This document shows, piece by piece, positions 1 to 52,413 of a DNA stretch of 61,333 bases. The position numbers were made by a program, and so were the translations under genes. Where the stretch lies: the NCBI GenBank assembly GCA_030324005.1, contig JARDVH010000106.1, forward strand, positions 70,744,930 to 70,806,262. The letters are read 5' to 3'. The notes below the pieces were generated by a model. The model was not told where the DNA came from. It made no database searches and saw nothing but the letters and a program-made list of their open reading frames with translations. Source of the stretch: Negaprion brevirostris. Taxonomy: Eukaryota. How positions within the stretch are numbered: the stretch's first letter is position 1; each line of letters starts with the position of its first letter.

Positions 1-560
1 TGTCAGAATTTTATATGTTTCAATTAGATCCCCTCTCATTCTTCTGAACTCCAGTGAACACTGGCCTAGTTGACCTAATCTCGCCTCATAATCCATCCCA
101 GAAATCAGGCTGGTGAGCCTTCACTGCACTTCCATTGTGGCAAATATGCCCTTTTCTTGGGCATATTTGCCCCAATAATGCTCTATTGTGCACATATTAT
201 TCCTGGTGTGGTCTCAGTAAGACCTTGTACAGCTACAGTAAGACATCCTTTTTCCTGTACTTAAGTCCTTTTGCAATGAAGGTCAAGTAAGCATTTTCTT
301 CCTAATTGCTGACTACACTGCAAGCCTGCTTTCAGTACTAGTATATAAGGACATGCAAGTTCTTTTGTATGCCAACTATCCCCAATCTATCACTATTTAA
401 ATAATGCTTCACCATTCTGCTTATCTTACCAAAGTAGCTAACTTCACACTTGCCTTCTATTGCATCCGCCATGTATTTACCCATTCACTCAACTTGTCTA
501 AATCGCCTTGAAGCTCTTTACATCTCCCTTACCACTCTCATTCCCACCAGTTTAGTGTTG
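1..560 (-). mobile_element. CR1 LINE ORF2 3' fragment, degenerate
   Basis: Reverse complement resembles the CR1 RT C-terminal region (LYKVLLRPHQEYYVHN-like motif), with frameshifts. Confidence 0.75.
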
Positions 561-1076
561 ACAGCAAATGTGCATGTATCAATTTCTCACATTTTAAAAA
601 ATTGCTTCTCAAGACCCCTTTGACATTGTCTGCATTCGTCTGATGCTGCAGATCTAAATATTGAATTCAAATGCTTGGAATTATAAAATCGTGGTTATCT
701 GTTTAAATGAACTAGTTAAGAGAGAGCTGTGTGCATGCGTTGTGCCCGGTATCTAAAATAACAGCGCTAAACAATGCTGTCATGTGAAAATGTTAGTTTA
801 TGCTCTGTGTATTAGACGCAGAGTGTAACTTTGACTCACTCTGATAACACTGTAGTGCCAAGTTCCTGATAATGCCTATACAAATGAAAAATTAGTGCAC
901 ATTGTGGAAGTGCCACATCCAATACAAGTTAAATTGGAAAAAAACCCACAATTAGGACCTAATACCGTTTTTACCTGTTGTAGTGCCTGAAGTAGCCTTG
1001 TTCTTCATCGTAGCCAGGTTGCATTCCATTTGCCAATGCTCTGCCCACTGAACCATTGATATCCTCCTGCAGTCCA

Positions 1077-1635
1077 CGACTGAACACAGCTCAACAATCA
1101 CCAGGCAAGATTGTTCCCTTCCTGTTGGCGAACACTTCAGTGGTTACGGACATTCGGCCTCTGATCTTGGGGTAAACATTCTCCAAGATGACCTTCATGA
1201 CATAGGACAGTGCAGAGTCGCTGAGCGGAAACGTAGCCAAGTTCCGCACATGAGGATGGCCTCAACCGGGATCTTGGGATCATGTCACACCATCTNNNNN
1301 NNNNNNNNNNNNNNNNNNNNNNNNNNNNNNNNNNNNNNNNNNNNNNNNNNNNNNNNNNNNNNNNNNNNNNNNNNNNNNNNNNNNNNNNNNNNNNNNNNNN
1401 NNNNNNNNNNNNNNNNNNNNNNNNNNNNNNNNNNNNNNNNNNNNNNNNNNNNNNNNNNNNNNNNNNNNNNNNNNNNNNNNNNNNNNNNNNNNNNNNNNNN
1501 NNNNNNNNNNNNNNNNNNNNNNNNNNNNNAAGCTAGTGGCGTTTACTACCAAATAAACCTGTTGGACTTTAACCTGGTGTTGTGAAACTTCGTACTGTGT
1601 TTACCCCAGTCCAATGCTGGCACCTCTACATCATG
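1077..1635 (+). mobile_element. Penelope-like retroelement 3' end (GIY-YIG endonuclease C-terminus plus pLTR), interrupted by a gap
   Basis: Translates TITRQDCSLPVGEHFSGYGHSASDL...KFRTHEDGLNRDLG, followed by the terminal motif ACCAAATAAACCTGTTGGACTTTAACCTGGTGTTGTGA that recurs in the window. Confidence 0.8.
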
Positions 1636-2189
1636 AACCCCACGGGAAGCAGACTTCCAGACATAGAGATATTCTCTGCCATCACCTTCCTGCTTTCCTG
1701 CCTCTCAGTTTTGGATTCAATGTGCCACTGAGCCTTGGATCCCATGGGCCTTTACTTTCTTGATGATATGATATAACAATTTTATTTGCTCGAATACCAT
1801 GTTTTTGGAAGATGTGCCTGGGGAATACGAAATACTGTTTTTGTGTATTGGCAATGTACCACCTGCTGGCCAGACCCCGTGAACAGCTTTGGCACCAGAG
1901 GGTGAATAGTTATGCACAGAGGAGATTGATTATAACTGGAAGAAGGGAACATTATATGCAACAGAATGTGATCACAAATGAAGAGGTCTTGCTGACATTG
2001 ACGTTGTATAAACTGTTTTGACAATGATAGTTTGGACCCGATGGCATTAAAGCAAAGAGAAGTGAAAATCCCTGAAACCGAGTCAAGTAATTTGGACTTT
2101 ATTTCCAGTTTAGAGTGTACAAGTCTTGTGTCTGACATTGAAACCGTTTTGCAGCAACATTNNNNNNNNNNTGTGTATTAAACATAATT

Positions 2190-2770
2190 AATTGATCTTA
2201 ACTGATGGAGGCAGCAGAGTTTTGGACCTCAAGTTTAGGTCAAGAGTACATAAGAAGAGTCAAGTATAGGGGAATAAAGGCATGGATAAGAATTTCAGCA
2301 GAAGATAAGTTAAAGTGGGAATGCTATGAAGGGCAGTTAGGGATGGGTAACAAATACTCTTCTTGCCAGCAACGCCCAAACCTCATGAAAGAGAAAAGTA
2401 GAAATAGACAGTTTTGGCCGTGGTGCAAATCTGTGATTAAAAGCTTGGCTCAGATTTGTTATTGACGTTGCAAACTGTCTTATTTGTGCTCAGACAGTTG
2501 CCAATGGAGAAGGATGGATTCCGTGGCTAGGGAATAGATTTTTTGGTGGAGTCAAAAGATGATGGCTTTAGTCTTCCCAGTATTTAGATGAAGGGAATTG
2601 CTGTTCATTCATTATTGCATGTTGGACAAGCAGTCTGACAATTTCAAGATGCTGAAGGGTTTGAGAGAGGTGGTGGTGAGGTAGAGCTGGTATACAGTCG
2701 CTAGTCCATATGGAAACTAAAATATTTTAAGATGATGTTGCCATGAGGTACATGTAGACGGGGAATAGGA
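2190..2770 (-). mobile_element. L2-type LINE RT fragment, degenerate
   Basis: Minus strand gives a degenerate FHM.ADD.QLY...LSDCLSN...LNTGKTKAI RT segment. A related copy lies at about 7440-8150. Confidence 0.6.
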
Positions 2771-2814
2771 GACAAAGGTAGAACATAGTTACTGGACAAA
2801 CAATCCAGGAGTCT

Positions 2815-3340
2815 TCAAGAACAAGGGAGGTTATACTTCTGCCCGATCTGAAGTACTGTGTACAACATTGTTGGTCTGACTTAAGGAAAAATGTCATTGT
2901 CTTAGAAGTAGTTCTGAGAAGGCTGACTAGATGAATACCTGGAGTAGGCGAGAGTTTAGAAGAGTAAGAGGCAACTTGATTGCAATACAGAAGATCCTGA
3001 GGGGTACTTACAGGGTGGACGTGGAGAGGATGTTTCCTCTTGTGGGAGAATCTAGAACTAGGGGGTCACTGTTTAAAAATAAGGTTTTGCCTATTTAAAA
3101 TAGATGCGAAGAATTTCTTTTCCCTGAAGATTATGGGTCTTTGGAACTCTCTTCTCCAAAAGGAGGTGAAGGCAGAGTCTTTGAATAGTTTTAAGGCAGA
3201 GCTGGATATTTTCTTTCCAAGCAAGGTTTTGGCAAGAATGTGAAGTTGAGGTTAATATCAGATCATCCAAGATTACTTGGAATGGTGGAGTAGGCTTGAA
3301 AGGCCAAATGGCCTACTCCTCCGAATTCGTATGTTTGTAT
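2815..3340 (+). mobile_element. CR1 LINE 3' end inserted into a tRNA-derived SINE (SINE parts at about 2785-2810 and 3340-3620)
   Basis: GGHCLKIR...KNFFSLKIMGLWNSL CR1 C-terminal motif, plus a 3' tail ending GGCCTACTCCT...TATGTTTGTATG. Confidence 0.8.
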
Positions 3341-5861
3341 GGACTCATTCTCCAGATGGCGAAGTTCAAATCCCAACACTGAAGTACAGGATCTTAAATT
3401 CAATTGGTTAATAAATCTGGAATAAAATGATCATGAAATTGTCATAAAATACCATTTGGCAGAAAATCTGTCAGCCTTACCTCATCTGGCCCACACATGT
3501 CTCCAGATCCACAGCAGTGCGGGTGATTCTTAGCTGCTTCTGTAATGGCCAAGCAGGCCACTTAGTTGTATCATCCTGCTACAAAAAAGGAATTGTGCTT
3601 GTACCTACACCACATGGGCAGCAAGGAACTTGGAAGAAGTTTGATGCTGTGGGTTAAAGGAAGGGAGGGAAATGGCAGAGGCAGCGGATAAGATTGCCTC
3701 AGTGTCGATGACAAGGAAATCCATGAACTCCTCGCACTGGTTGAAGGAGGAAGTAGTGGAGTGGAGGTCAAGAAGGCAGTTTGCAGCAGAGAAGAGAAAC
3801 CAGAAGTTAACTTTGCATTCCAGGATGATCTTAGAATGTGAACAATTTTAGCAGATGAGAACTGGACCCAACAGTGATTTCTGATCGTCAGTTTTCCTCA
3901 TTATCCACTTAAGAATGTTTCCCTTAGATTTAAGGAATTGGGGATGAGATTTGAGGAACAGCCAGGTTAAGAGAATATAATGGTTTTAATCAGGACCAGG
4001 GCATCAAAGGTAGCGGTGAGGGTGCAGTTGAGCAGATAGCTAGCTGCAGGAATGACACAATGAACAGAAGACCAAAGGCTGGACAGCTGGGATTTTGAAA
4101 GAGTAGTTCTAAGTGAATTCAGGGAGTTGCTTTCCTAAAGAGATACAGCAGGAAGTAGGGCTTGGAAGGGAAGTGGGATGTAGGTGATGTAATGACGTAA
4201 TTAGAAATAACTTTACCTGTGATTGACTCTATGATGTGTGATGAGAAGCTCAAGGGGATGACTGTGAATATGGTTCATGAGTTTACATGGAGGAGGGGGG
4301 AAGAAGACAGAGACCAAATTTTGCCAGGGCCTGAGTCTTGACAATTGAAACTAGCAGTTAACTAAATGAAGGAGAAGGTGCACCCAGTTTTAGAAATGGG
4401 GACATGTCAATGTGATCAGTTGAAGAATATATCTATCTGTGCAGGACTGAGCTCCCTAAGAAGCTGACTGCCTAGGAACCATCTTGAAAACTTCAGTATC
4501 AAATGTTTCCTTAGTTACTGAAGCAGTCTATGAAGCAAGACCTGACTAATAGCCATACTTGGGCTGATAAATAGTAAGAATTGTTTGTGCTACACATGGG
4601 CCAGGCAATGATCATCTCCAACAAGAGATTGTCAAAACTCCCACTATTAACATCTTGAAACCACCATTGTCCAGAAACTTAACTCAGATAGCCACATAAG
4701 TTCTGTGGCGACTGCAGCAGGTCAAGAACTAGATATTTTGCAGCAAATGGGCTCACCTCGAGTACCCTGAGATGCCTGTCCACCACCTACAAGTTAAGAG
4801 TTTGAGAGAACGTTCTCCACTTGTCTGGATGGTTACAGCTGCTACAACACTCAAGAAACTCAGCATCATCAAATAATCCACTTTATATCCACCCTTCCAC
4901 TATCTCAAATTCAAAGGAAGTGGATAGCAGGGATTTGTGGGTAAGCAGGCTTTAATTATCAGGTACTCACCGGGTGAAGCCTTCCATTGTGTGCTGGAGC
5001 AGGCGAGTGAAGGAGCAGAGAGTCAAGTAAGAAANNNNNNNNNNNNNNNNNNNNNNNNNNNNNNNNNNNNNNNNNNNNNNNNNNNNNNNNNNNNNNNNNN
5101 NNNNNNNNNNNNNNNNNNNNNNNNNNNNNNNNNNTATTGAATGGCGGGGCAGGCTCGAGGGGCTAGATGGCCTACTCCTGCTCCTATTTCTTATGTTCTT
5201 ATGTTATGAATATCCATTCCCTCCACCAACTGTGGACCATGGCTGCAGTGTGAATTATCAACAGGAAGTACTGTGTCAGGTCGTTGAGGCTTCTTGAACA
5301 GCATTTCCCAATCCTGTAACTCCCACTATCTCTACCTTCTCCACCAAGTCACACATCATCCCTACAAGGACATGTACCAGTGTTCCTTCATAGCTGTGTC
5401 AAATCCAGTGAATCCCTATCATAACAGCACCTTAGGTGTACCTGCATCACATGAAGCAGTTCAAGAAGGCAGCTCATCATCATCTATCTGCTCAAGGAAA
5501 ACAAACGATCAATAAATGTTGACCTCACTAGTGACAGCCATCCTGATAAAGCAAATATCTTAAAAATGAAATGCTTTGGACCTTTTGCTGCATCTGTGTT
5601 CAGCCGAAATTGGGGTCAAGTTTCTGACAGTCCAAATATTGCTTTTAGAGAAGACAGGTTATATTTGTGGAAAATATTGCACTTGATATTTTAACCATTA
5701 TTCTTTCTATGTGGTCAGACTAAATCTGCAGAGTTTACAAAGTGGTTATGATCAGAATTGGTAATGTTTATGTAGATTGGGTATATTTTCCTTTATGGAA
5801 TTTTTTTATTTTATATTTTTTCAGTCATATCACAGAAATACTTTTCTTTTATCTTGCATAG

Positions 5862-5894
5862 GACAGTCAGAAGAGAAATCTGATGGCAACAGTG
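5862..5894 (+). CDS. GTF2F2: Putative 33-nt alternative (micro)exon of GTF2F2, encoding (G)QSEEKSDGNS
   Basis: CTTTTCTTTTATCTTGCATAG|GACAGTCAG...GGCAACAGTG|GTAAGT: strong acceptor and consensus donor. Length is divisible by 3 and the frame is open in phase 1, matching the start phase of exon 5. It sits in a non-repeat island. Confidence 0.75.
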
Positions 5895-6368
5895 GTAAGT
5901 GTAATATTTACATTTTCGTCACTTTCACTTTAGTGGCTGAAACCAAAAACAATTAACGAAAACATTTTAATTTGTGGTTTAGTTTTTCATTTTTGTAAGT
6001 TTTGTTAATAAGAGATTGAATATGGGTTGAATAAATGGGGTCAATTCCATGCAAAATACAATTGATCTTGTTTCTTTGAATTAATTGTATTGGACTCTGT
6101 CTGAGAACAAAACTGATAAAATGGTGCCCTAGGAAGGGCAATTCTGGTCCATCATGATGCTTTACGACAAACTCGCCGGACTTCGTAATTGTGGTCACAG
6201 TATACTGGCATCTGTTGGGTTGGAAGACAGTAGTGNNNNNNNNNNNNNNNNNNNNNNNNNNNNNNNNNNNNNNNNNNNNNNNNNNNNNNNNNNNNNNNNN
6301 NNNNNNAGATCGCTCGCCCAACCTTTTAGTAAGGTGAAAAGCAATCATGAGAAGCCAAAGCTTGCAAT

Positions 6369-21347: not shown

Positions 21348-22175
<828 letters not shown>

Positions 22176-28060: not shown

Positions 28061-30000
28061 GCGACTAGAACTTATATTGGGAAAGCTGTCCACTTAATAG
28101 TCAAGCGACAACAATATGACGTATTCGTATTCATTGAATTGTACCTTTTAGCTGGCATTTCAGACCAGCAATGTCCTGTTCCATTGGCAGCATAGACTCA
28201 GCAGAGGTGGCGGTGGCACAAAACATAACATCAAATGTAAGCAAGTAAACTTCCTATGATTACCACCTATCACCCTTCCTCACCTGATAAGTCCATGCTC
28301 CTCCATGTTGAACACTACTAGGCAGAGGATAACGAGGGCGCAGAATTTACTCTGGGTGGTGGCTTGATAGCATCACTATTGACTGAACTGGTTGAGTTCT
28401 GAAGGACAAAATTGCCACACTGAGCCTGCAAGCAGGTTGGTGAGAAAACCAACAAAAGAAAAAAACCTATTTGACCTCATCCACACTAATCTGGTTACTG
28501 CAGATGCATCTTGCCGTGTTAGTATCAGTAGAAGTAACCATCACACAATCCTTGTGAAAATGAAGTCTCAAAGATATTCTTCATCATGTAGTATTGCACT
28601 ATCATGTTAAATAGAAAAGATTCAGAACGTATTTAGTAGCTGAAAACTGAGCATCAGTGAGGCATTGCAGTAGAATTGTATTCAGCTACAATCTGTAAAC
28701 TCATGGCCCACCACATCCCTCAGCTGACCATTACCATCAAGCTAGGAGATCAACCTGAAGTGCAGAAAAACATGTCAGGAACAGTTATATGTAAAACTGA
28801 GGTACCAACCTGGTCATACTACAGCACAGGACTACATACATACTGAGACAGAGCTAAGCAATCCTGAGAACCAGTGAATCACATCAAAGCTCTTCTGTCC
28901 TGTCACAGCCAGTCAAAAATACTGGTGGACAATTGCCAAAGAGGGCACTTGGTGAATGGTGCTGTCCTCACTGATGGTAAAGGCAGCATTTGAATGCAAG
29001 AGACAAAACTAAAACATTTGAAAACCCCTTCAGCCAGAAGTGCCAAATAGACGATCCATTCAGCCTCCTCCTAAGAACTCCACCATCATGGAAGTTGATC
29101 TTCAGCCAATTCCATTCCCTTAAGAAGCAGCTGAATACACTGCATACAGTGATGGCTATATGGAAATTGCCAACATCCTGGCTGAAGAATTGTTCTCCAG
29201 AAATAGCCACACGTCTCGTTTACTGTTCTATTAGAGCAACAACACTGGCATCTACCCGACAATGTGGAATATTATTAGCGATGGCCTATACATAAAAACC
29301 AGGACGCATTCAAACCAGATCATTGCTGTTCTATCATTCCACTCTTGCTCATCAGCAGAACGATGTAAGGTATCGCCAATAATGCTATAATGTTTAACCT
29401 GCTCACCAATGCTAAGTTTAAGTTCTACCATTGCCACTTCATTCCAGTCTTTATTGCAGCCTTGGTTTAAACATGGATGATGAGAGAACTGAATACAGAG
29501 GTAAGGTGAGAATAATTTCCTTGACATCAACGCAACATTTGACAGAATGTGGCATCAAGGAACCTGAGCTAAATAAAAGTCAGTGGTAATCGGGGAAATC
29601 TCTCAAGAGCTGGAGTCATACTTAGCACAAAGAAAGATGATTGTGATTGCTTGGAGGCCAGTCCTTTCAGTACTAGGACAGATTTCTCAGGGCAGTAGCC
29701 TAACATTCAAGAAGGTCAACACAATCCAGGGCAAAGCAGCCAGTTTGATCAGGACCCATTCAACTTTCTACCCTCACATTCTTCATCATTGGTGTACCTC
29801 AAACAACACACTAAGTTTTCTTCAGCACTACCTCCCAAACCGGCAATCATTTACCACTAGAAGGGCATTAGCAGCAGGTACATGAGAACACCACCAGATG
29901 CAAATTCTCTTCTAATTCCTACCAAACAGCACTATGGGATATCGACACCACATGCACTACAGCGATTCAAGAAGGCGGCTTCACCACAGTTTTGTCAAGC
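28060..30000 (+). mobile_element. Degenerate CR1-group LINE (endonuclease through RT and 3' tail)
   Basis: KNLFDLIHTNL...SNHHTILV (APE end), LKNCSPEIATRL (RT start) and tail CAGCGATTCAAGAAGGCGGCTTCACCAC. Many stops and frameshifts. Confidence 0.8.
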
Positions 30001-31265: not shown

Positions 31266-31347
31266 AAAAGCTAACGTTTGAAGGAGTTGTGGTTCAGCGT
31301 GCAGAATGTAGACCAGCTGTCAATGAATCTTACATGAGGTTAAAAAG
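31266..31347 (+). CDS. GTF2F2: GTF2F2 (TFIIF subunit 2, RAP30) coding exon, equivalent to human exon 5, 82 nt
   Basis: Polypyrimidine tract, then TCAAG|AAAAGCTA...TTAAAAAG|GTCAGT. Translates KLTFEGVVVQRAECRPAVNESYMRLKR versus human KLSLEGIVVQRAECRPAASENYMRLKR. Confidence 0.96.
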
Positions 31348-40566: not shown

Positions 40567-40666
40567 GCAGCAAATTGAAGAATCTTCCAAACCATTCCGT
40601 CTCTCTCTACAACTGGATAAGGCTGTTACAACAAATTACAAGCCCGTAGCAAACCATCAGTACAAC
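40567..40666 (+). CDS. GTF2F2: GTF2F2 coding exon, equivalent to human exon 6, 100 nt
   Basis: CCAG|GCAGCAAATT...TACAAC|GTAAGT. Translates QQIEESSKPFRLSLQLDKAVTTNYKPVANHQYN versus human LQIEESSKPVRLSQQLDKVVTTNYKPVANHQYN. Phase is compatible with exon 5. Confidence 0.96.
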
Positions 40667-41134
40667 GTAAGTCTGACTTGTTTACTAACTGCATTGAAAC
40701 ATGTTATCATCCCATCAATACCAACAAAAACAAATTTATCAGCATTTTTCAAGCGTGAGATTTTTAGCAGAGGAGGTTATTACTGAACAGTGTAGGCTGA
40801 TAGGAGATGTATATTTGTGTGTGGGGAGTTGTACAGTTTACAACAGTGGTGTCTTAACAAAACATGCAATTTTCAATCTCTTGGGTTATGAAGATTGCCT
40901 TTGTCTTAACATTAATCTGTTCTATTATATTTTATTAGATCGCCTTTCTACCTGAATGTTAATATAAAGCTGTGGTCATTAAAAGATATTAAAAATATTT
41001 ATCCTTGTGCAGTCAATGCAGTTGAAATTGGATTGCTTTACAGTTGGTGTTAGGATAAGCTTGAATGGGGACGGAGAACCCAAAACCGAAGTACACTTTC
41101 TCTAGACAGCCCAGAACAGAAAATTTGTCATAAA

Positions 41135-41270
41135 ATAAATAAAAGCAAATTACTACAGGTGCTGGAATCCATCAGCTTTGACAAAAGGTCGCCTGGCCTT
41201 GAGACGTCAGCTCTTTTCTCTCCTTGCAGATGCTGTCAGATCTGCTGAGATTTCCCAGCATTTTCAGAAA
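41135..41270 (+). mobile_element. Penelope-type pLTR fragment with degenerate hammerhead motif; similar fragment at 40375-40495
   Basis: TTTGACAAAAGGTCGCCTGGCCTTGAGACGTCAGCTC...CAGATGCTGTCAGATCTGCTGAGATTTCCCAGCATTTTC. Confidence 0.65.
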
Positions 41271-41659
41271 ATTTGTCATTCTCGATTTCTCTGAAAGGGT
41301 GAGACTGTTTGACTCTTGGAGCATCCTATGCGGGACAGGGTGCCCAGAAATCTGCTCACGGTTGAATAGTCTAATCTCTCACCCTACTGAACTTCTGCCA
41401 CTGCAGTTTCTGTCCTCTCATCAGGCCCTCTTCAAGCACACCTTGTGCATGAGGTCCATGCCCTGCTCCCTTAACCCTATCCTCACCAAATGCTGCTTAC
41501 ACAACCTCCCTTTCCTGGCCTTGTTTACTGATGGAAATCAAAATGGGATCCTCATCTTCAGATGTTCAAAATTATCATTGTCAGCCAGTCCTGGAAACAG
41601 TACAGCTTTGATCCTTCTGTTGTTGCAAACTTCTGCTCCACTTTCTATTTCCCATTACC

Positions 41660-44010
41660 CATGCTGTCTTTAAACATACTGTCAGATCAATTTAAATCCT
41701 CCACCCTCCCAGACTCCTGCACTACAATCTCTGAGTATGTCCTGTTTACCACCAATAAGACAGACCAACTATAGGTGGTGGCATAGTGATAAACAATGGG
41801 GAGGAAGATGACTTGGAAGTCCTCTACATTGACTCTGGACACCATGAAGTCTCATCAGGTTAAACATGGGCAAGGACACTTTCTGAATCAAACCTAATAT
41901 CCTCCCTCAACTGATGAATTGGTATTCCTTCATGTTGATCACCACTTAGGTAGCAAAGGCACAGAATGTATTCCTGTTGTAGGAAAGGCTTTGTGTGCAT
42001 CGCCGAGAGTGGCTCTGTAGCATCTCAAGAAATGGTACAGGTCAAAACCTGAAAGACATATTTGCCAAACTGCACCTGCATCAGGTGATGAAGGAAGCAA
42101 NNNNNNNNNNNNNNNNNNNNNNNNNNNNNNNNNNNNNNNNNNNNNNNNNNNNNNNNNNNNNNNNNNNNNNNNNNNNNNNNNNNNNNNNNNNNNNNNNNNN
42201 NNNNNNNNNNNNNNNNNNNNNNNNNNNNNNNNNNNNNNNNNNNNNNNNNNNNNNNNNNNNNNNNNNNNNNNNNNNNNNNNNNNNNNNNNNNNNNNNNNNN
42301 NNNNNNNNNNNNNNNNNNNNNNNNNNNNNNNNNNNNNNNNNNNNNNNNNNNNNNNNNNNNNNNNNNNNNNNNNNNNNNNNNNNNNNNNNNNNNNNNNNNN
42401 NNNNNNNNNNNNNNNNNNNNNNNNNNNNNNNNNNNNNNNNNNNNNNNNNNNNNNNNNNNNNNNNNNNNNNNNNNNNNNNNNNNNNNNNNNNNNNNNNNNN
42501 NNNNNNNNNNNNNNNNNNNNNNNNNNNNNNNNNNNNNNNNNNNNNNNNNNNNNNNNNNNNNNNNNNNNNNNNNNNNNNNNNNNNNNNNNNNNNNNNNNNN
42601 NNNNNNNNNNNNNNNGCAGGAGTGCTAACCACTGTGCCACTGTGCTGCACTATTCATTCCCTTAGGCTGGGGGAACAACCCTGGTTCAATGAGGAGTGCA
42701 AGAGGGCATGCCAAGAACAGCACCAGGCATACCTAAAAATGCAATCCAACTAGGTGAGGCTACAAAATAGAACAACGTGCATTTTGAACAGTGGAAGCAC
42801 CATGCAGTAGACGGAGTTAAGTGACCGCACGACCAACAGATCAGATTAAAGTTCTACATTCCAGTTACATCCAGTTGTGAATGGTGGTTAGTTAAACAAC
42901 TAACTGAAGAGGCTCCATAAATGTCGCCATGCTCAGTGATGGAGGAGCCCAGCATATCAGAGCAAAAGACAAGGCTGAAGCATTTGCGGCTACCTTCAGC
43001 CAGCAGTGCCAAATGGATGATCCATCTCAACCTCCTCCTAATCTCTCCAACGTCACAGTTGACAGTCTTTTCTGTTCACTCCATGTGACATCAAGAAATG
43101 GCTGAAGGTATTAGATAATGCATGACTCTCGACAATATCCTGGCAATGGTACCAAAGAGTTTTGCTCCAGAACTAGTCATGTCCCAGTCAAGCTGTTCCA
43201 GTTTGGCTACAATACTGGCATCTGCCTGGCAATGTGGAAAATTGTCCAGGTATGCCCTATCCACAAAAAGCAGGACAAAGCCAACCTGGTCAACTATTGC
43301 TAGTATCAATCATATTGATGAAAGGCGTTGTCAACAGTGCTGTCAGGTGGCGCTTAAACAGCACTAACTTGTTCACCAATGCTCAGTTTAGATTCAAGAG
43401 GGCTACTTGGCCCCTGATCCTATTATAGCTTCAGTCCAAGTGTAGGCTAAAGAGCTGAATTCAGTATGAAGTGAAGGTGATTTCCCTTGACACCACAGCA
43501 GCATTTGATTAAGGAGCCCAAGTTAAAAAGAAGTCAATGGGAATAAGGGGCAACATTTGGCATTGGGTGGAGTCATACCTTGCACAAAGGAAGACAATTA
43601 TAGTTGTTGGAGGCCAGTCGTTTTATTCATCAGGGCATTACCGCCGGATTTCTCAGGATACTGTCCTAGGCCCAACCAACTTCAGTTGCTTCACCAATGT
43701 CCTTCTCTCCATCGCAATGTCAGATGGATATCTGATGATGATTGCTCTATGTTCGATACCACTCGCAATTCCTTGGTTACTGAAGCAGTCCATGTCTGTA
43801 TGCAGCAAGATCTGGGCAGTGTTCAAGCTTAGACAGATAATTGGCAACATGCATGCCACGTAAGTGCTAGGTGACCATCTGCAGTAAGAGAAAATCTAAC
43901 CATCTTCCTTTGACATTCAATGGCATTACAATCATTGAATCCCCCCAGTGGGACTACCATTTAAATACTGGGGCTACAAGAGCAAGTCAGGGGCTGGGAA
44001 TTCTGTGGTT
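41660..44010 (+). mobile_element. Degenerate CR1-group LINE (same family as 28060-30000), with a minus-strand HE1 SINE probably filling gap 42101-42615
   Basis: GEQPWFNEECKRACQEQHQAYLKM, KLFQFGYNTGICLAMWKIVQVCPIHKKQDKANLVNY and WVESYLAQRKTIIVVGGQS RT motifs. GTGCTAACCACTGTGCCAC after the gap is an HE1 head on the minus strand. Confidence 0.85.
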
Positions 44011-44073
44011 TGTATTTGACTGGTGCAAATGCGATGGGCTAGGGGCCTTTTTCTGTGCTGTGGACCTCTATGA

Positions 44074-45793
44074 TTCAATTGCTCTAGGAAATACACAAAT
44101 CACCATAAGTAGCAACATAGGTTAATAAGACCATTAAAAGCAGCAAATCATGAATAGGGCTTTTTGTGGAGGGATGGAAGTGAAAAGTTGCTAAACTTGT
44201 ATCCACGTTGGTATTTTTTGTGCAGTTCTAGGCGTTATATTCTAAAAAGGATAAATAAAGAAGCACTTGAGGGTACAAAAAAAATAGTGAAAGCAGGGCT
44301 GTAAGGTTAAACCTGTCATAGTGAACAGGCATGGTCTCATTTCTCTGGAAGAGGAAGTTGAGGGGTGAACTAACAAGGGTCTTTACTTCTACATAAAGCC
44401 TGTACATCATCTACAAGACACAAGTCAGGAGTGTTATGGCATATTCTCTACTTGCCTGGATGAGTACAGTTCCTGTAANNNNNNNNNNNNNNNNNNNNNN
44501 NNNNNNNNNNNNNNNNNNNNNNNNNNNNNNNNNNNNNNNNNNNNNNNNNNNNNNNNNNNNNNNNNNNNNNNNNNNNNNCTCTCCAGAAGCTTGGCACCAA
44601 CCAGGACAAAGCAGCCTGCTTGATTGGCATCCCATCCACCACTTTCAGCATTCATTTCCTTCAGCACAATATATAGTGGGAGCAGTTTATACCATCTACA
44701 AGATGCACTGCAGCAATTCACCAAGGTTGCTTCAATAATACCTTCAAGCCTGTGAACTCTACCACCTAGAAGGATAAGAACAGCAGGTGGATGGGAACAT
44801 CACCACCTGGAGGTTCCTCTCCAAGCCACTCACCATTCTGAGATGAAAGTATACTGCTGTTCCTTCAGTGTCACTGGGTCAAAATCCTGGAATTCTCTTC
44901 CTAACAGTGCTGTGGGTATATATACACTACGGGTGCTCCAGTGGTTCAAGATGGCAGCTCACCACCACTGCCACCTTAAGGGAAATTAGGGATGGGCAAC
45001 AAATGCTGGCCTCATCACAGATGTTCACATCATGTGGAAGAATAAATAAAATAAAACACTCCCTATGGTCAAATTCCATATTCTCACCACTCTCTGAATG
45101 AAGGAAGCCTTTTCTGAAATCCCTATTTGGCTTCTTGGTGACTCTTTTAAATTAATGGCCTCATGCTTTGTCCCTCCCCATAAGTGGAAACCTTCTCTGT
45201 GTCTACTATCAAAGATTTTCATAACTTTTAGGATCCTTGTTAGTCCACCCTTCAACTGCAGTGTATCTTGTAGATGATACAAACTGCTCCCACTATATAT
45301 TGTGCTGAAGGGAATGAATGCTTAAAGTGGTGAATGGATGCCAATCAAGCAGGCTGCTTTGTCCTGGTTGGTGCCAAGCTTCTGGAGAANNNNNNNNNNN
45401 NNNNNNNNNNNNNNNNNNNNNNNNNNNNNNNNNNNNNNNNNNNNNNNGTGTCTTGTAGATGATGTACAGGCTTTATGTAGAAGTAAAGATCCTTGTCAGT
45501 TCACCCCTCAACTTCCTCTTCCAGAGAAATGAGACCATGCCTGTTCACTATGATAGGTTTAACCTTACAGCCCTGCTTTCATTATTTTTTTGTACCCTCA
45601 AGTGCTTCTTTATTTATCCTTTTTATAATATGATGCCTAGAACCTCATAAAAAAAACCAAGGTGGATACAAGTTTAACAATTTTCACTTCCATCCCTCTA
45701 GAAAAAGCCCTATTCATGATTTGCTGTTTTTAATGATCTTACTAACCTATGTTGCTATTTATGGTGATTTGTATATTTCCTACAGCAATTGAA
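44074..45793. repeat. Long inverted duplication (arms 44074-44713 and 45256-45793)
   Basis: Arms are reverse complements with scattered mismatches. The ORF track shows the same peptides on opposite strands (MMYRLYVEVK..., MPIKQAALSWLVPSFWR). Confidence 0.93.
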
Positions 45794-48489
45794 AAAGGTC
45801 CCTTGGCCCATCGCGTCTGCGCGAGTCAAGTACAAACCATCCAAATATTCTAACCCAATTTTCCAGCACTTGGTCCATGGCTTTGTGTGCCTTGGCATTG
45901 CAAATGCACATCTAAGTATTACTTAAATGCTGTGAGGGTTTCTACCTTTTAGACAGCGAGTTCCAGACTCCCTCCACCCTCTAGGTGAAAAAGTTTTTTG
46001 TCACATCCCCTCTAAACCATCAAGTTCCCCCCCGAGTCTTCCCTGCCCCAAGGAAAACAACCCCCGTCTATCCAATCTTTCTTCAAACTTTCCAGCCCAG
46101 GCAACATCCTGGTAAATCTTCTCTATTTGTAATCTCAGACTACTTTGCTCCTCTACCACATTTAGATTCTTCTTTTCTAATTAATATGTGATCTCTTGAT
46201 TTATCTTTCTATAAATGCAGTTGTTGATGTATGCAGTCCAGGCTCAAACATTAAAATGTCAAGATGATTGAAGGATAATGGTGTGCACTGATATCCAGAG
46301 AAGCAGAAGCACAGCATGTGTCTTTGGTTGATGAATGAGACCTAATACAGAAAAGAGAGGGAGATTATGTTAGTGTCTGTTTTAAGTTTATTAAGTTGCT
46401 TGATTTGCCTGTCTAAGGTATCTTGCACCTTGTCCATACACACTGGATCAGCGCTTACAGAGGAATATTTTAATATATTGTTAGACATTAGTGCCATCTT
46501 GCTGCTGCTTGTTCAAGTAGGATGTTGGGACCCTCAAGTGAAGGAATGATGACTATGACTGGGTTGATGGACGGTCATGAGATGCAAGATACTTCTGCAT
46601 CCAGCAAACCTCAAGCATCAGATTGGTAGATATGGTGAGAGAATGACAACAAGAGGTTTGAATAATAACAAAAGTTGCGGCTCTTTAGACTGCAGATTCC
46701 ACGTTAGAGGAAAGAGAGGCATGGACAGGGGTGTTTAGGGAACAACTGTTCCCCTTAGTTCCAGGGTCAGTTACAAAGGGACACAAGTTAAAAGTGAGGG
46801 GTGGGAGGTTTGGGGAGATTTGAGGGAAAGCGTTTTTACTCAGAGGGTGGAATGCGCTGCCTGGAATGTGGTGGAGGTGGGATGCGTCACATCCTTTAAA
46901 AAGTACCTGGATGAGTACTTGGCACACCATAACATTCAAGGCTATGGGCCAAATGCTAGCAAGTGGGATTAGGTGGGCAGGTCAGGGCATTTCATGCATT
47001 GGTGTGGACTCGATGGACCGAACAGCCTCTTCTGCACTGTAGTATTCTGTGATTCTGTGAAGAGGCAAGCAGTTCAGTGAGTTCCAGAACTGCTGCCAAA
47101 TGCATTAGAGGTGGTCCATCTGAAATATGCACACACTGTCTTCTTACTACTGCAGGCCTTCCACTATCAAGAAACCTTGGCTGAAAAGTTTTAAATATTT
47201 GAGTTTAATTTAGCTGATTCCCTCGGTTGAGAGTCAGCTTTTGGATCTCGCTCTCTCTGTCTGTCCCTCAGAAATTGATGCTCTTGTTCTCTCCAATCCT
47301 TTATTTGCTAAAATGGGGAGAACCAGCAGGGTTTTGAGTATGGAGATGTTACAACTGGGGCATGGTCCTCTTGTACCTAATAATCCAAGTTTCAATTGGG
47401 GTAACTAGGCAGCAATTCCTCATATACTTTCCTGTTACCTCACAATTCAGCTTTTTGCCAGTTGAACTCCTTTCTTCCAACTTCCATCAACTACAAACGT
47501 GTTGGAATACCACAGCCTGTGCTCTCACCTTCACTCAATGCCGATCCCCCTTGTTTTCAACTCCTGGCATGTTTTCCTGCTTCTGCAGTCTCCCCAAAGC
47601 TCTATGTCCTTGTGGAAACCCTCAGTTTTGCAATGCTTCGATTTCTGCTCCACATCACTGGCTAATTCTTTGGCCTCCTTGCTCTCTGGAACTTGCTTTC
47701 TCAGCATCTATCATTTACTGTTTCCCTTTCTATCTTCTGAAGACCTTCCTATGCGGCTCCTTTTCCCTCCTTCAGACTTCTCTGTTCCTTCTCCAAAGGA
47801 CTAGAAGCATGTTAAAGCAACATATTGTAAATCGGAAATTGTTTTGCCATGAAGGTAATCAACAGAGGAGTTCATTTACCCTTCCACCTGTTTTCCACCA
47901 TTCAGTTGGCTTAACTCCATTTACCTGCTATTGCCTCATATCCCTAATAACCTTGGTTAACAGAAAACTGCTGATCTCAGAATTAACAAGTAACCCAGCA
48001 AAAGCTGTCATCTGTGGAAAATAGCTTCAGATATCTTCTACCATTTGTGTGTTGAAGTGTTTCCTAGTATCACTCATCCTAGATCTAATTTTTAGATTCT
48101 TTTAAAAGAAGTAGATGAGAATCATAATGATACCCTAACTATAACCTTCTAAAGCTCTCCTGACTTGATAACTGTTTCCATAGATTGGAAAATTATTCAT
48201 ATCACTCTGTTATTTGCGAAAGAGAGAGAAAGCCATGGAATTACAGACCAGTTAACTGAGCATTTATTGTCAGGGAATTGCCACCTGTCCAATTAAGGAT
48301 GGAATGACAGAGAATCTTCAGCTGGTCAGAGAGAGCCAGCAGGGATTCCTAAAGGATAGGTCACGCCTGATAAACGTCATCACACTTTTTTGAGGAGGTA
48401 ATTGAAGTAGTGGGCAGGGAATGTCTAAAAATGTTATTTATATGGGCTTCCAAGGTATTCTCAAAAGTGACTCTGAGCTAAAAATGGGG

Positions 48490-49142
48490 AGGTGGCGGTG
48501 TAGTGGTAATGCTATTGAACTAATAATTCAAAGACCCACGCTGATGATCTGGAGACTTAGTTTCAAATCCCACAGTGGCAGCAGATGGAATTATAAAAGT
48601 TTCTTTTTATACATCCTTTTGTAGCACTTACTATCTGTTTTGTCACCCCTTGTTGTTCTTTCCTACTTCTTGCATTTTTGTATGCTTTTTCTTTCCATTT
48701 TATCTTGTCTCTTGCCTGTACAGTGACTACNNNNNNNNNNNNNNNNNNNNNNNNNNNNNNNNNNNNNNNNNNNNNNNNNNNNNNNNNNNNNNNNNNNNNN
48801 NNNNNNNNNNNNNNNNNNNNNNNNNNNNNNCAGTGACTACATGTCTGTCAAAGCTCTTGCTCCTTCGAGGTGTAAACTGGTGATGTATCACCAATTTTAA
48901 TTTGCATATGTCCTGCTGATTATCTGCAATGGCGATCATGAAACTATCATTGATTGTGAAAACCCATGTGGGTCACTAAGGTACATTAGTAAAGGAACTC
49001 TGCCACCCTTACTGGGTCGAGCCTACATGTGACTCCAGACCCACAGCAATATGGTTATCTCTTAACTGCCCTCTGAAATAACCCAGCAAGCCCCAATTTG
49101 AGGGCAATTAGTGATGCCCACAAATGAATAAAGAAAAAAAAA
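48490..49142 (+). mobile_element. tRNA-derived SINE nested in a CR1 fragment and interrupted at about 48597-48925 by a locally duplicated segment
   Basis: Head GGTGGCGGTGTAGTGGTAATG...GTTTCAAATCCCAC. The body resumes at GGCGATCATGAAACT...TACATGTGACTCCAGACCCACAGCAAT and ends in an A-rich tail. Confidence 0.75.
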
Positions 49143-49299
49143 TGAGTGCAACTTATTGACTTGGCTCGGAAATTGACTGAGTGACAGGAGGCAGTAGGGA
49201 TAATGGACAGGGGCTTTAATTGGCAGAATGTGGCTAGAGGTATGTCATAAGAACCTAATATCTGATTATTAACTTCTGTGGAAAGTCTGACACGCGTCA

Positions 49300-49730
49300 G
49301 TCATGCTTTAGTTGGTCGACCTTGAGTCACAAAGTTGCAAGTTTAAGTCTCACTCCAAGACTTGAGCCGAAAATTCACGATTCACATTCAGCTGCGTCAC
49401 TGAGCAAGTGCTGCACCCTAAGGTGCCATTCCTTCAGATGAGATGTAAATCGAGGCCCCATCTGCTCTGCCAGGTGGATGTAAAGGGTCCTGATGCACTA
49501 TTTCAAAGAAGAGCAGGGGTGTTAGTCATGATGTCCTAGCTAATATTCTTCCTTAATTAACTGCTCCAGAACAGACTGTCTGGGCGTTATGGCGTTGCTG
49601 TCTGAGGGTGCTGCCATGTTTCCTACATCATAACAATGACTATATTTCCAAAAGTACTTCATTGGCTTGAAAAGGCTTTGAGCCCTCTGGTGATCATGAA
49701 AGGTGCTATATAAATGTAAATTTCTTTTCA
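49300..49730 (+). mobile_element. Deu-domain SINE (SacSINE1-like), near full length
   Basis: GGTGCCATTCCTTCAGATGAGATGTAAATCGAGGCCCC...CACTATTTCAAAGAAGAGCAGGGG...AAAGGTGCTATATAAATGTAA matches the recalled DeuSINE organisation. Confidence 0.8.
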
Positions 49731-50284
49731 TGCTGATCTTGTCATCCAATGTAAAACTGACACAAAGTAATTAATCAGCATGTCACCATTTCCTTGACAA
49801 CATCACCGTTATCAGTTTTTTGGATGCCCATATTGCTCCCGATCACACTCTTTTTCGTAATGTAATTGTAATTTATTTTTGTTGATTCAGCATTCCTTTC
49901 AAATTTCTTTTTGTGCATTCTTCTGCAGCGCTTACTTTCTGTTTTGTCACCTCTTTCCTACTTTTTTCACTTTTGTGTGCTTTTTCTTTCAATTTTATGT
50001 TGTCTGTTGCCTGTACAGCGACTACATGGCTGTCAAAGCTCTTGCTCCTTTGAGGTACAAACTGGTGATGTATCACCGATTCTTTTGTGAACACCTCCTG
50101 CTGATTATCTGGCATTTTATCCATTAACAGATTTGCTCAGTTGACTGTCTCTGTCACATCCCAATGACGTTAAGCAGCCTTACCTAAATCTAGAATCTTA
50201 GCTGCTGCTTCACATTTCTTCCTTTGATCAATGTTAAATGTGATCACATTATGATCACCATTAAATAAATGTTCACACAACATT

Positions 50285-50575
50285 GGGACGGCACGGTAGA
50301 ACAGTGATTAGCGCCTGTGTTCAATTCCAGCCTCGGGTCACTGTCAATGTGGAGTTTGCACACTCCTCCCACGTCTGTGTGGGTTTCCTCCACGTGCTCC
50401 AGTTTCCTCCCACAGTCCAAAGATATGCGGGTTAGGTTGATTGGCCATTCCAAATTGACCCTTAGTGTCAGGGAGATCAGGGTCAATATGTAGGGTTCTG
50501 AGAATAGGGCTTGAGCGGGATTGTGGTCAGTCAGACTCGATGGGTCGAATGGCCTCCTTCTGTACGGATTCTATG
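50285..50575 (+). mobile_element. HE1 SINE with internal deletion in the tRNA head
   Basis: V-domain and tail ...GACTCGATGGGTCGAATGGCCTCCTTCTGTAC. Confidence 0.88.
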
Positions 50576-50971
50576 AAATAAGTCACTATGCCTTCACTAT
50601 ATACTTGTCTCATCACCACATTTATGCAATCACCCACTTCACTGCTTATACATAACTCCTGCTGCAGTCTTAAATATTTGTATATCTTAATTCTACCCGC
50701 AAGTTGCCATTGCATGTTAAGTTCTTGTTAATCTTCTCTTATTAGCAAAGTCATTTCATTCATAATCACTAAGGCTGCTCCTCCCCTCTACCATTTTTCC
50801 TGTCTTTCCTTTGGAGTTGTAACTTGGCACAGTCAGTGTCCAGGCCTGATAAGTCTGCAGCCGTAAAGGTAAAATCACCACTGTCTGAGAGGGGTAGAGC
50901 TCCCTGGTGGTGATTTAACCTGAAGATCACCACACCTCAGGTGAGAAGCAAAGTTGAGAAGGCAGGCCTTC

Positions 50972-51270
50972 ATAGAAACAAAGAAATTAAAAACAGGAAT
51001 AGGCCATTTGGCCCTTCAAGCCTACTCCACCATTCATTTTGATGATGGCTGATCATCGAATTGCATATCCTGATTTCCTCCCCCACTTGCCCCCATATCC
51101 CTTAATCCGTTTAGCCCCAAGAGCTATATGTAATTTTGTCTTGAAATCAGATGGCATTTTGGCCATAACTATTTTCTGTGGTAGTGAATTCCTCACATTC
51201 ACTACCCTCTGGGTGAAGAAATTTCTCTTCACCTCAGTTCTAAGAAGTTTACCCCTTATCCTCAAACTAT
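50972..51270 (-). mobile_element. CR1 LINE 3' end
   Basis: LRIRGKLLRTEVKRNFFTQRVVNVRNSLPQKIV motif plus tail. Confidence 0.85.
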
Positions 51271-52263
51271 GATAACCTCAGCCTACTTGAGCAATGGCTA
51301 CCATGTCATTATCCTCCGAGTTGAACTTGAACCTGCCATTTACTTAATGTATTCCTTATACATGTGTGCGTTTCTGTCAAGAAAGCTTATTTGGGTCACA
51401 TATCCTAACCACCTCTTCTGCTGTAATGTTTTACTGACATACGTCTTATTTCTCTCAACTTATTTCACTACTTCACATCTTTTAGTTCTCTCTGTACCTG
51501 TTATGTAGCAGGATTTGACCACAGAACACTACAATAGAGTAGGATTGAAAAACTGGCTTAAGAGTAGCAAAATTAGATGGAGAGACATCAGTTCTGAATC
51601 ATGTTTGGACAATGGACACTATTGAAGAGGTTGAATAAACTATAGCCGGTCAAGCGAGCTGGATTTAATTTTTGTAGAATTCATTTTGTGTCTTTCTCAT
51701 GATTTTGCAGAATTGATTAATTCAGAAGCTTGTAACCTTGGCAAATTGAAAAATGGACCAACATGTGGGTGGCTTTCTTCATGCAGATCAAGTCTCCTTC
51801 CTTGGAGCTTATTACCAGTTGGTCAAGACTGATGTGTTTGAACACATTTGTCAAGTAAAAAAACTATAGAAATGTTCCTAAAAGTAACAGTCAGTAATCA
51901 TGCAGGCAGCAAGGTCCAAGTTCCTACTACAATGACAGTAAAGACATTGCATTTGGCTTCACTGAACCTAACCTGGGGAAGGTGCCTCTCACTCCTTATC
52001 ACTTATCCTGACAGGGTTGGTGCAGAGCATATCTTCGGATATTAGATAATGACAAGAATTGAATCAGCTGCCAGGCATGGACTGACCACAAGTGAAAAGT
52101 AACCAGTTAAGCAAGATACCAGAGAGTGACCAACAACCATAGACAATAATTCTTAGCTTAGTCAAATTCTTAGAGATAAAAATAATGGAGGAAAATGAGG
52201 TTTAAGAAAACAAAATAAATCTGTTCAAAGTGTGATGGCTTAGGCTCTGCTCAGAGTAGTCTA

Positions 52264-52413
52264 GCAAAAAGTCTCTCAACACCAGGTTAAAGTCCAACAG
52301 GTTTATTTGGTAGCACAAGCCACAAGCTTTCAAAGCGCTCCTCCTTGTGTTACCAAATAAACCTGTTGGACTTCTTACTGTGCTTGCCCCAGTCCAACAC
52401 CGACATTTCCACA
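52264..52413. mobile_element. 150-bp Penelope-pLTR-derived hairpin insertion with 13-bp target-site duplication
   Basis: TCAGAGTAGTCTA at 52251-52263 and 52414-52426. 30-bp inverted arms at 52290-52319 and 52344-52373. Confidence 0.88.

What the first reader, a model, noticed from the sequence alone, without database searches (positions are those of the whole stretch)
5862..5894. Frame-preserving 33-nt cassette (micro)exon in a general transcription factor (GTF2F2/RAP30)
Seen: strong 3' and 5' splice sites (T-rich tract-TTGCATAG | 33 nt | GTAAGT) in a repeat-free island of intron 4. It is open in the required phase 1 and would insert GQSEEKSDGNS before the KLTFEG strand of the RAP74-dimerisation domain. 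A UGC lies just before the AG, and YCAY motifs occur on both sides. Known: UGC near the 3' splice site marks SRRM3/4-regulated neural microexons, and the canonical human protein lacks this insert. Inference: a tissue-specific TFIIF isoform. I recall a similar GQSEE-type insert in teleost gtf2f2a isoforms but could not verify it. The peptide QSEEKSD also echoes the protein's own C-terminus QSEDKSE.
Basis: partly seen in the sequence, partly recalled or inferred. Interest (0 to 1): 0.75.

Follow-up and report, generated by a model that had tools for sequence, protein, structure and literature searches.

The report
Ancient TFIIF exon lost in placentals
This cartilaginous-fish gene for a core transcription factor (TFIIF beta) holds a 33-base optional exon that annotated proteins from lamprey to marsupials also carry and that placental mammals likely lost; it adds a predicted floppy loop, is likely included in most tissues rather than only in brain, and would at most fine-tune transcription initiation.

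Summary
5862-5894 is a phase 1-1 cassette exon of GTF2F2, between exon 4 (16.5 kb upstream, outside the window) and exon 5. Public annotations already carry it: 17 of 26 cartilaginous-fish records have the insert and 9 lack it. It recurs in lamprey, bony fish, lungfish, amphibians, sauropsids, monotremes and marsupials, but in 0 of 38 placental records. The long form therefore looks ancestral and the human form derived.

The neural SRRM3/4 reading is not supported. The exon is over 27 nt and orthologues run 33-60 nt. UGC occurs at 26 of 95 background acceptors and YCAY is not enriched. The gene is absent from a list of 708 zebrafish neural exons, and seven shark or ray species list only the included form. 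No reads were obtained, so tissue pattern is inferred.

The peptide is a predicted disordered hairpin loop of the dimerisation domain, at the position of the 69-residue yeast Tfg2 insertion, whose partial deletion shifts start sites genome-wide. That link and the placental loss turned up in none of my paper searches. The scan had not reported this exon before.

The parts
5862..5894 (+). GTF2F2 cassette exon, 33 nt, phase 1-1, encoding an 11-residue acidic Ser/Gly-rich loop
   Evidence: sequence; same peptide at the same junction in 17 of 26 cartilaginous-fish records
5800..5861 (+). Acceptor region: T-rich tract, UGC at 5855-5857, AG at 5860-5861; further AGs at 5823-5824 and 5834-5835
5895..5900 (+). 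Consensus donor GTAAGT
1..5861 (+). 3' part of the 16,490-nt intron between exon 4 (G000:C106:70734156-70734300, outside the window) and the cassette exon
21348..22118 (-). KCTD4 coding exon (256 aa), nested antisense in the 25,371-nt intron after the cassette; synteny marker
   Evidence: Pfam KCTD4_C E 6e-63 and BTB_2 E 5e-19; same nesting in cattle intron 4 (PMC3656791)
31266..31347 (+). Next constitutive exon (human exon 5 equivalent, 82 nt); last strand of the dimerisation domain
40567..40666 (+). Exon 6 equivalent (100 nt), linker
   Evidence: tblastn
56766..56885 (+). Last coding exon: end of the winged helix and the C-terminal tail (56862-56882) that the cassette peptide echoes

Best explanation
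This is a 33-nt cassette exon of GTF2F2 (RAP30, TFIIF beta) that is likely ancestral to vertebrates, likely included by default and skipped in some transcripts, and likely lost in placental mammals; it encodes a predicted disordered loop that would at most fine-tune TFIIF. Shown: splice sites, frame, position between exon 4 and exon 5, and long and short annotated isoforms across vertebrates. Predicted: the 11 residues lengthen the hairpin loop between two strands of the RAP74-binding domain without changing the fold. Inferred: strong splice sites and a purine-rich core give broad inclusion, and skipping gives the human-like 249-residue form. Because the dimerisation domain sits on the Rpb2 lobe and the same loop matters for start-site choice in yeast, I think the likeliest effect of the loop is a small modulation of TFIIF action at initiation (about 1 in 3); otherwise it is a tolerated spacer.
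For: Phase and frame. Insert in 17 of 26 cartilaginous-fish records; both forms are listed for 5 species, and 7 species have a record without an isoform suffix, all 7 with the insert. Inserts of 11-20 residues, net charge 0 to -3, in 15 of 15 chosen long isoforms from lamprey to opossum. Placental records: 0 of 38 with the homologous core, 31 short, 3 with unrelated inserts (p 0.055 or more against four reference inserts), 4 unparsed. The curated Xenopus proteins carry it, as does a Bothriechis UniRef entry, likely from a venom-gland assembly. Model: strands 93-99 and 114-127, pLDDT under 50 at 103-110; it overlays 1F3U at Z 10.8, rmsd 3.0, 112 aligned. The yeast deletion construct 4V1N (331 against 400 residues) is joined at exactly this loop, and tfg2 delta146-180 shifts start sites upstream (PMC4291466, PMC7265651). 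Long loops are common in distant RAP30s: 24 of 43 span 20 or more residues, against 13 in human and 24 in shark.
Against: No reads or junction counts for this species, so default inclusion is inferred from annotation patterns. Placental loss rests on protein records (15 of 364 members of the main cluster listed), not genome alignments. 5 of 5 sturgeon, paddlefish and bichir records and two Tasmanian devil '-like' records lack the insert, so the loop is dispensable in several lineages. 12 of 43 distant RAP30s have short loops. The lamprey insert is only weakly similar to the shark one (p = 0.015). The yeast insertion is six times longer, was not compared in sequence, and works in a scanning type of initiation that animals do not use (own knowledge).
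Confidence: 0.6

Rival explanations
1. One reading: an SRRM3/4 (or Nova) dependent neural exon that makes a brain-specific TFIIF.
For: UGC at -7 from the acceptor; short, frame-preserving, in a surface loop; 82 of 136 zebrafish neural exons of 28-51 nt respond to srrm3/4 loss, so 33 nt does not exclude it (PMC12626424); short isoforms exist in many species.
Against: UGC is in 26 of 95 background acceptor-like sites; YCAY p = 0.86, 0.068, 0.86 and 0.25 in four flank windows; no GCATG within 300 nt. No gtf2 gene among 708 zebrafish neural exons, while mef2ca and taf1 were found as controls. GTF2F2 is not named among 4,059 chicken PanAS, low-frequency and switch-like events, although some rows have no gene name. 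Seven species with only the included form. Length varies 33-60 nt.
Confidence: 0.1
2. A regulated, non-neural switch: skipping is specific to a tissue or stage and yields two functionally distinct TFIIF forms.
For: Short isoforms are annotated in parallel in sharks, rays, bony fish, coelacanth, frogs, lizards and birds; a zebrafish short form is a curated NP record; the core motif is kept across jawed vertebrates.
Against: No tissue data obtained; not named in the chicken table; several species list no short form.
Confidence: 0.2
3. A near-constitutive exon with leaky skipping that encodes a neutral spacer; the conserved core reflects a purine-rich splicing enhancer rather than protein function.
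For: The core codons are purine-rich; loop length is free to vary, span 12-40 in 43 distant proteins; several lineages do without it.
Against: The core resembles the protein's own C-terminal tail at p under 0.02 in 9 of 15 lineages (not independent) while the serine codons differ between the two places, which fits selection on a peptide motif; the yeast loop has a phenotype.
Confidence: 0.3
4. A pseudo-exon that is not spliced in this species.
For: No RNA evidence for this species was obtained.
Against: Peptide identical at 9-10 of 11 positions to annotated shark and ray inserts, intact splice sites, correct phase.
Confidence: 0.02

Closest known systems
RefSeq/UniRef long isoforms of GTF2F2 in cartilaginous fish (e.g. 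XP_067848631.1 Heptranchias X1, XP_060689337.1 Hemiscyllium) and Xenopus RAP30 Q03123 (264 aa)
   Same: Same junction, 11 residues in sharks, near-identical peptide; long and short forms annotated.
   Different: Database annotations only; I found no paper that discusses the exon, its tissue pattern or its loss.
Yeast Tfg2 non-conserved insertion in the dimerisation domain (about 141-209; 144-192 in PMC2810376), allele tfg2 delta146-180
   Same: Same hairpin loop, between the VFTE strand and the last strand; the domain binds the Rpb2 lobe.
   Different: 69 residues and constitutive, against 11 residues on an optional exon; sequence homology not tested; the phenotype is read out through yeast promoter scanning.
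SRRM3/4-regulated neural microexons
   Same: Short, frame-preserving, surface loop, UGC near the acceptor.
   Different: Over 27 nt, length not conserved, missing from placental records, not in the zebrafish neural list, and apparently included by default.
Broadly alternative (PanAS) exons of transcription regulators (PMC5630039)
   Same: Frame-preserving, disordered, in a transcription gene, two coexisting isoforms possible.
   Different: GTF2F2 is not named in the chicken table; inclusion level unmeasured here.

Membership tests
GTF2F2 / RAP30 orthologue | TFIIF_beta_N and TFIIF_beta domains; exon structure | tested here: met
   Six exon matches in order on C106 at 83-91% to a shark RAP30; PF02270 in the window; both Pfam domains on the shark relative P0146. 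Exon 7 was not found in the window, and PF17683 gave no match when searched directly in the genome.
GTF2F2 / RAP30 orthologue | KCTD4 nested antisense in intron 4 | tested here: met
   21348-22118 minus strand; cattle arrangement in PMC3656791
Conserved alternative cassette exon | Symmetric phase, open frame, canonical splice sites | tested here: met
Conserved alternative cassette exon | Both inclusion and skipping isoforms exist | tested here: met
   Met in relatives: both forms listed for Hypanus, Mobula birostris, Narcine, Leucoraja and Heptranchias. Not shown for this species.
SRRM3/4 neural microexon | Length 3-27 nt | tested here: not met
   33 nt; orthologues 33-60 nt; definition in PMC9303857
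SRRM3/4 neural microexon | UGC near the 3' splice site | tested here: inconclusive
   One UGC at -7, but 26 of 95 background acceptor-like sites have one at -20 to -4
SRRM3/4 neural microexon | Neural-enriched inclusion | tested here: inconclusive
   No shark reads. Proxy evidence is against: absent from 708 zebrafish neural exons, not named in the chicken table, sole annotated form in 7 species. Absence from a list can also reflect coverage or naming.
SRRM3/4 neural microexon | Loss of inclusion without SRRM3/4 | not testable with these tools
   The eLife source data list mutant changes by event id only, which I could not map to this gene
SRRM3/4 neural microexon | High conservation of length and sequence from fish to human | tested here: not met
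   0 of 38 placental records carry it; 11-20 residues elsewhere
Nova target exon | YCAY clusters beyond background | tested here: not met
   2, 3, 3 and 4 motifs against 2.5, 1.2, 4.0 and 2.7 expected; lowest p 0.068

The most novel reading that the evidence does not exclude
Non-placental vertebrates tune a general transcription factor by splicing: an optional exon adds or removes the RAP30 loop that in yeast sets start-site choice, giving two TFIIF forms with different initiation behaviour, and placental mammals fixed the loopless form. The loop's core may be a second copy of the C-terminal tail motif that recruits the same kinase or partner next to the Pol II lobe.
Probability: 0.12. Interest if true: 0.7.

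Novelty: already known. Interest (0 to 1): 0.3.

Why it matters
The exon itself is in public annotations, so it is not a discovery. Two points seem undescribed in the papers I could search. First, the human RAP30 used in all 60 full-length vertebrate PDB entries matched is likely the derived, loop-less form, while most vertebrates can make a longer one. Second, the optional loop is at the position of the yeast Tfg2 insertion that affects start-site selection, which gives a natural, cheap test of whether this loop does anything in animal initiation. If the loop is neutral, it is a tidy example of clade-specific exon loss in a housekeeping gene.

Tried and rejected
No read alignment was obtained, so junction use and flank conservation stay open.

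Paper searches with no hit or no relevant hit: GTF2F2+microexon 0; GTF2F2+alternative splicing+exon+neural 1, unrelated by title and abstract; gtf2f2a 1, unrelated by title and abstract; RAP30+Xenopus+TFIIF+isoform 2, unrelated by title and abstract; GTF2F2+skipped exon 0; KCTD4+GTF2F2 11, mostly association studies by listing. Subscription papers are not covered.

Supplements without gtf2f2: PMC12626424 (12 of 12 files), PMC9303857 (12 of 18), PMC12626420 (12 of 13), PMC13281805 (2 files, one cut when stored), PMC5630039 (11 files, then Table S4). Unseen files could hold the exon.

PF17683 found nothing in the genome and nothing in controls: uninformative. A first AlphaFold model on 22 vertebrate rows was poor (mean pLDDT 48.7) and was replaced by one on 64 rows (80.3). 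My splice-site scan for exons 6-7 found neither; tblastn found exon 6 only.

Rejected: that the human X1 (26 aa), bat X1 (27 aa) or lemming (12 aa) inserts are remnants of this exon (p 0.055-0.96); recent DNA duplication of the C-terminal tail as origin of the echo (serine codons differ in class at both positions). No complex prediction was run because no RAP74 sequence was held. One earlier scan note (a Cryptosporidium TFIIF beta gene) did not bear on this.

Full report
Observation. The segment 5862-5894 is 33 nt, follows a T-rich tract and AG, and ends at GTAAGT. The window is G000:C106:70744930-70806262. A shark RAP30 protein matches six exons in order on this contig at 83-91% identity. Exon 4 lies outside the window and its donor at 70734301 is in phase 1; exon 5 starts at 31266 with the two bases that complete that codon. 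Inclusion adds 11 residues and skipping keeps the frame. The flanking introns are 16,490 and 25,371 nt. In window 1-31265 only 2 segments pass the same splice-site and frame filter. A KCTD4 coding exon lies antisense at 21348-22118, as in intron 4 of cattle GTF2F2 (PMC3656791, passages), which supports orthology. Exon 7 was not found in the window; there are N gaps where it should be.

It is an exon, and it is annotated. A search with the last exon gave 412 relatives, of which 120 were listed. Many come in pairs: 249-252 residues without and 260-270 with an insert at this junction. Among 26 cartilaginous-fish records, 17 carry the insert and 9 do not. By species (15 of 29 members of the main cluster were listed): 7 have a record with no isoform suffix, all with the insert; 5 show both forms; 3 show only long forms; 3 show only a short X2; none shows a short form without suffix. 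I read the lack of a suffix as a single annotated protein (own knowledge of RefSeq naming). Long forms occur in lamprey, chimaera, eel, gar, carp, sea bream, lungfish, frog, caecilian, lizard, bird, turtle, platypus and opossum, 11-20 residues long and mostly acidic (15 chosen examples). A truncated Dromiciops record also has it.

Who lacks it. Of 38 placental records, none has the homologous core: 31 are short, 4 could not be parsed (one visibly short) and 3 have inserts unrelated to four reference inserts (human X1, a bat X1, a lemming model; p 0.055-0.96). Only 15 of 364 members of the main mammal-containing cluster were listed, and no genome alignment was possible, so loss on the placental stem is an inference. 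5 of 5 sturgeon, paddlefish and bichir records and 3 of 7 monotreme or marsupial records are also short. Among 43 distant RAP30s the span across the loop has a median of 22 residues, with 24 at 20 or more and 12 at 15 or less, against 13 in human and 24 in shark. A long, variable loop is thus common in the family.

Is it neural? The evidence leans against. Microexons are defined as 3-27 nt (PMC9303857, passages), although 82 of 136 zebrafish neural exons of 28-51 nt respond to srrm3/4 loss (PMC12626424, passages). The UGC at -7 is matched by 26 of 95 acceptor-like sites in the window, YCAY counts are not above shuffles (lowest p 0.068 of four windows), and no GCATG lies within 300 nt. The list of 708 zebrafish neural exons has no gtf2 gene, while two control genes were found (supplement); the cyprinid insert is 16 residues, so the exon would fall in the 28-51 nt class. 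GTF2F2 is not named among 4,059 chicken PanAS, low-frequency and switch-like events, though some rows lack names (PMC5630039, passages and Table S4). Three more zebrafish papers gave no hit in the supplements I could search. The curated Xenopus laevis and X. tropicalis proteins carry the insert. So does a UniRef entry shared by two Bothriechis taxa, and assembled transcriptomes of two Bothriechis species were deposited by a venom study (PMC7014597, listing and passages); tying the entry to venom gland is my inference. Against this, no reads were obtained for this species, and absence from lists can come from coverage or naming.

Where it sits. An AlphaFold model of a shark long form on 64 sequences (mean pLDDT 80.3) has strands at 93-99 and 114-127, with pLDDT under 50 at 103-110, inside the cassette. 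It overlays the human RAP30/RAP74 crystal structure 1F3U (Z 10.8, rmsd 3.0, 112 aligned) and yeast Tfg2 in 4V1N (Z 10.3, rmsd 2.9, 103 aligned). The 4V1N chain is 69 residues shorter than full-length Tfg2. In a profile alignment its residues 140 and 141 fall on either side of the vertebrate insert, and 141 corresponds to full-length 210. The yeast insertion, placed at 144-192 by PMC2810376 (passages), is therefore in the same loop. The allele tfg2 delta146-180 lies within it. It shifts start sites upstream at ADH1 (PMC4291466, passages) and across promoters genome-wide (PMC7265651, passages). The original allele paper (Eichner 2010) I did not read. The dimerisation domain binds near the Rpb2 lobe and Rpb9 jaw (PMC7111264, passages); point mutants in the Tfg2 dimerisation domain also alter start-site reporters (PMC12633254, passages). 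Whether this loop faces Pol II was not determined.

The echo. The cassette core resembles the protein's last seven residues: p = 0.0046 against shuffles over a whole short isoform, and p under 0.02 in 9 of 15 lineages, which share ancestry and are not independent. The serines use TCN codons in the cassette and AGY codons in the tail, so it is not a recent duplication. It may be a shared peptide motif or a compositional accident; a phosphosite near the human C-terminus is recalled, not checked.

Mechanism. Most likely the exon is included by default through strong splice sites and a purine-rich core, and skipped in a share of transcripts. It lengthens a dispensable surface loop. I give about 0.85 to the ancestral-exon, placental-loss reading, 0.75 to broad inclusion, and about 1 in 3 to a measurable effect on initiation. 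The neural SRRM3/4 reading gets 0.1.

Verdict. A real exon, already in public annotations and not a member of the neural microexon family by the tests possible here. The placental loss and the match to the yeast start-site loop appeared in none of ten paper searches (open-licence papers only) and give a cheap experiment. Interest 0.3.

Noticed in passing
window 21348-22118 (-): Intact KCTD4 coding exon (256 aa, BTB_2 plus KCTD4_C) nested antisense in the intron after the cassette, as in cattle; the nesting predates the shark-mammal split.
   Followed up: yes
window 5823-5835 (+): Two further AGs 39 and 28 nt upstream of the used acceptor, the first behind a longer T-rich tract; using either would extend the exon by 37 or 26 nt and shift the frame.
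   Followed up: no
proteins P0351, P0353, P0357, P0361, P0077: All five sturgeon, paddlefish and bichir records lack the insert, though gar has it: possibly a second, independent loss or low inclusion.
   Followed up: partly
proteins P0135, P0329, P0132: Human, a bat and a lemming have unrelated in-frame inserts at the same junction, so the loop may tolerate new exons after the loss.
   Followed up: partly
proteins P0131, P0359: Marsupial 'GTF2F2-like' records differ: the opossum one has the insert, the Tasmanian devil one lacks it. If these are retrocopies they would record germline isoforms; their gene structure was not checked.
   Followed up: no
window 40667-56765: Exon 7 (about 144 nt) is missing from the window sequence, probably inside one of the N stretches such as 42101-42615 or 52670-53427.
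   Followed up: partly
window 29356-29364 (+): A 9-nt segment with acceptor, GTAAGG donor and open phase-1 frame, the only other candidate of this kind in the intron; no matching two- or three-residue insert was looked for in relatives.
   Followed up: no
window 5135-5216: End of a very common repeat with many 96-100% identical copies across the genome.
   Followed up: no
proteins P0416, P0417: Myotis myotis records named 'zinc finger protein 641' fall in a GTF2F2 cluster, suggesting a retrocopy fusion or a fused gene model.
   Followed up: no
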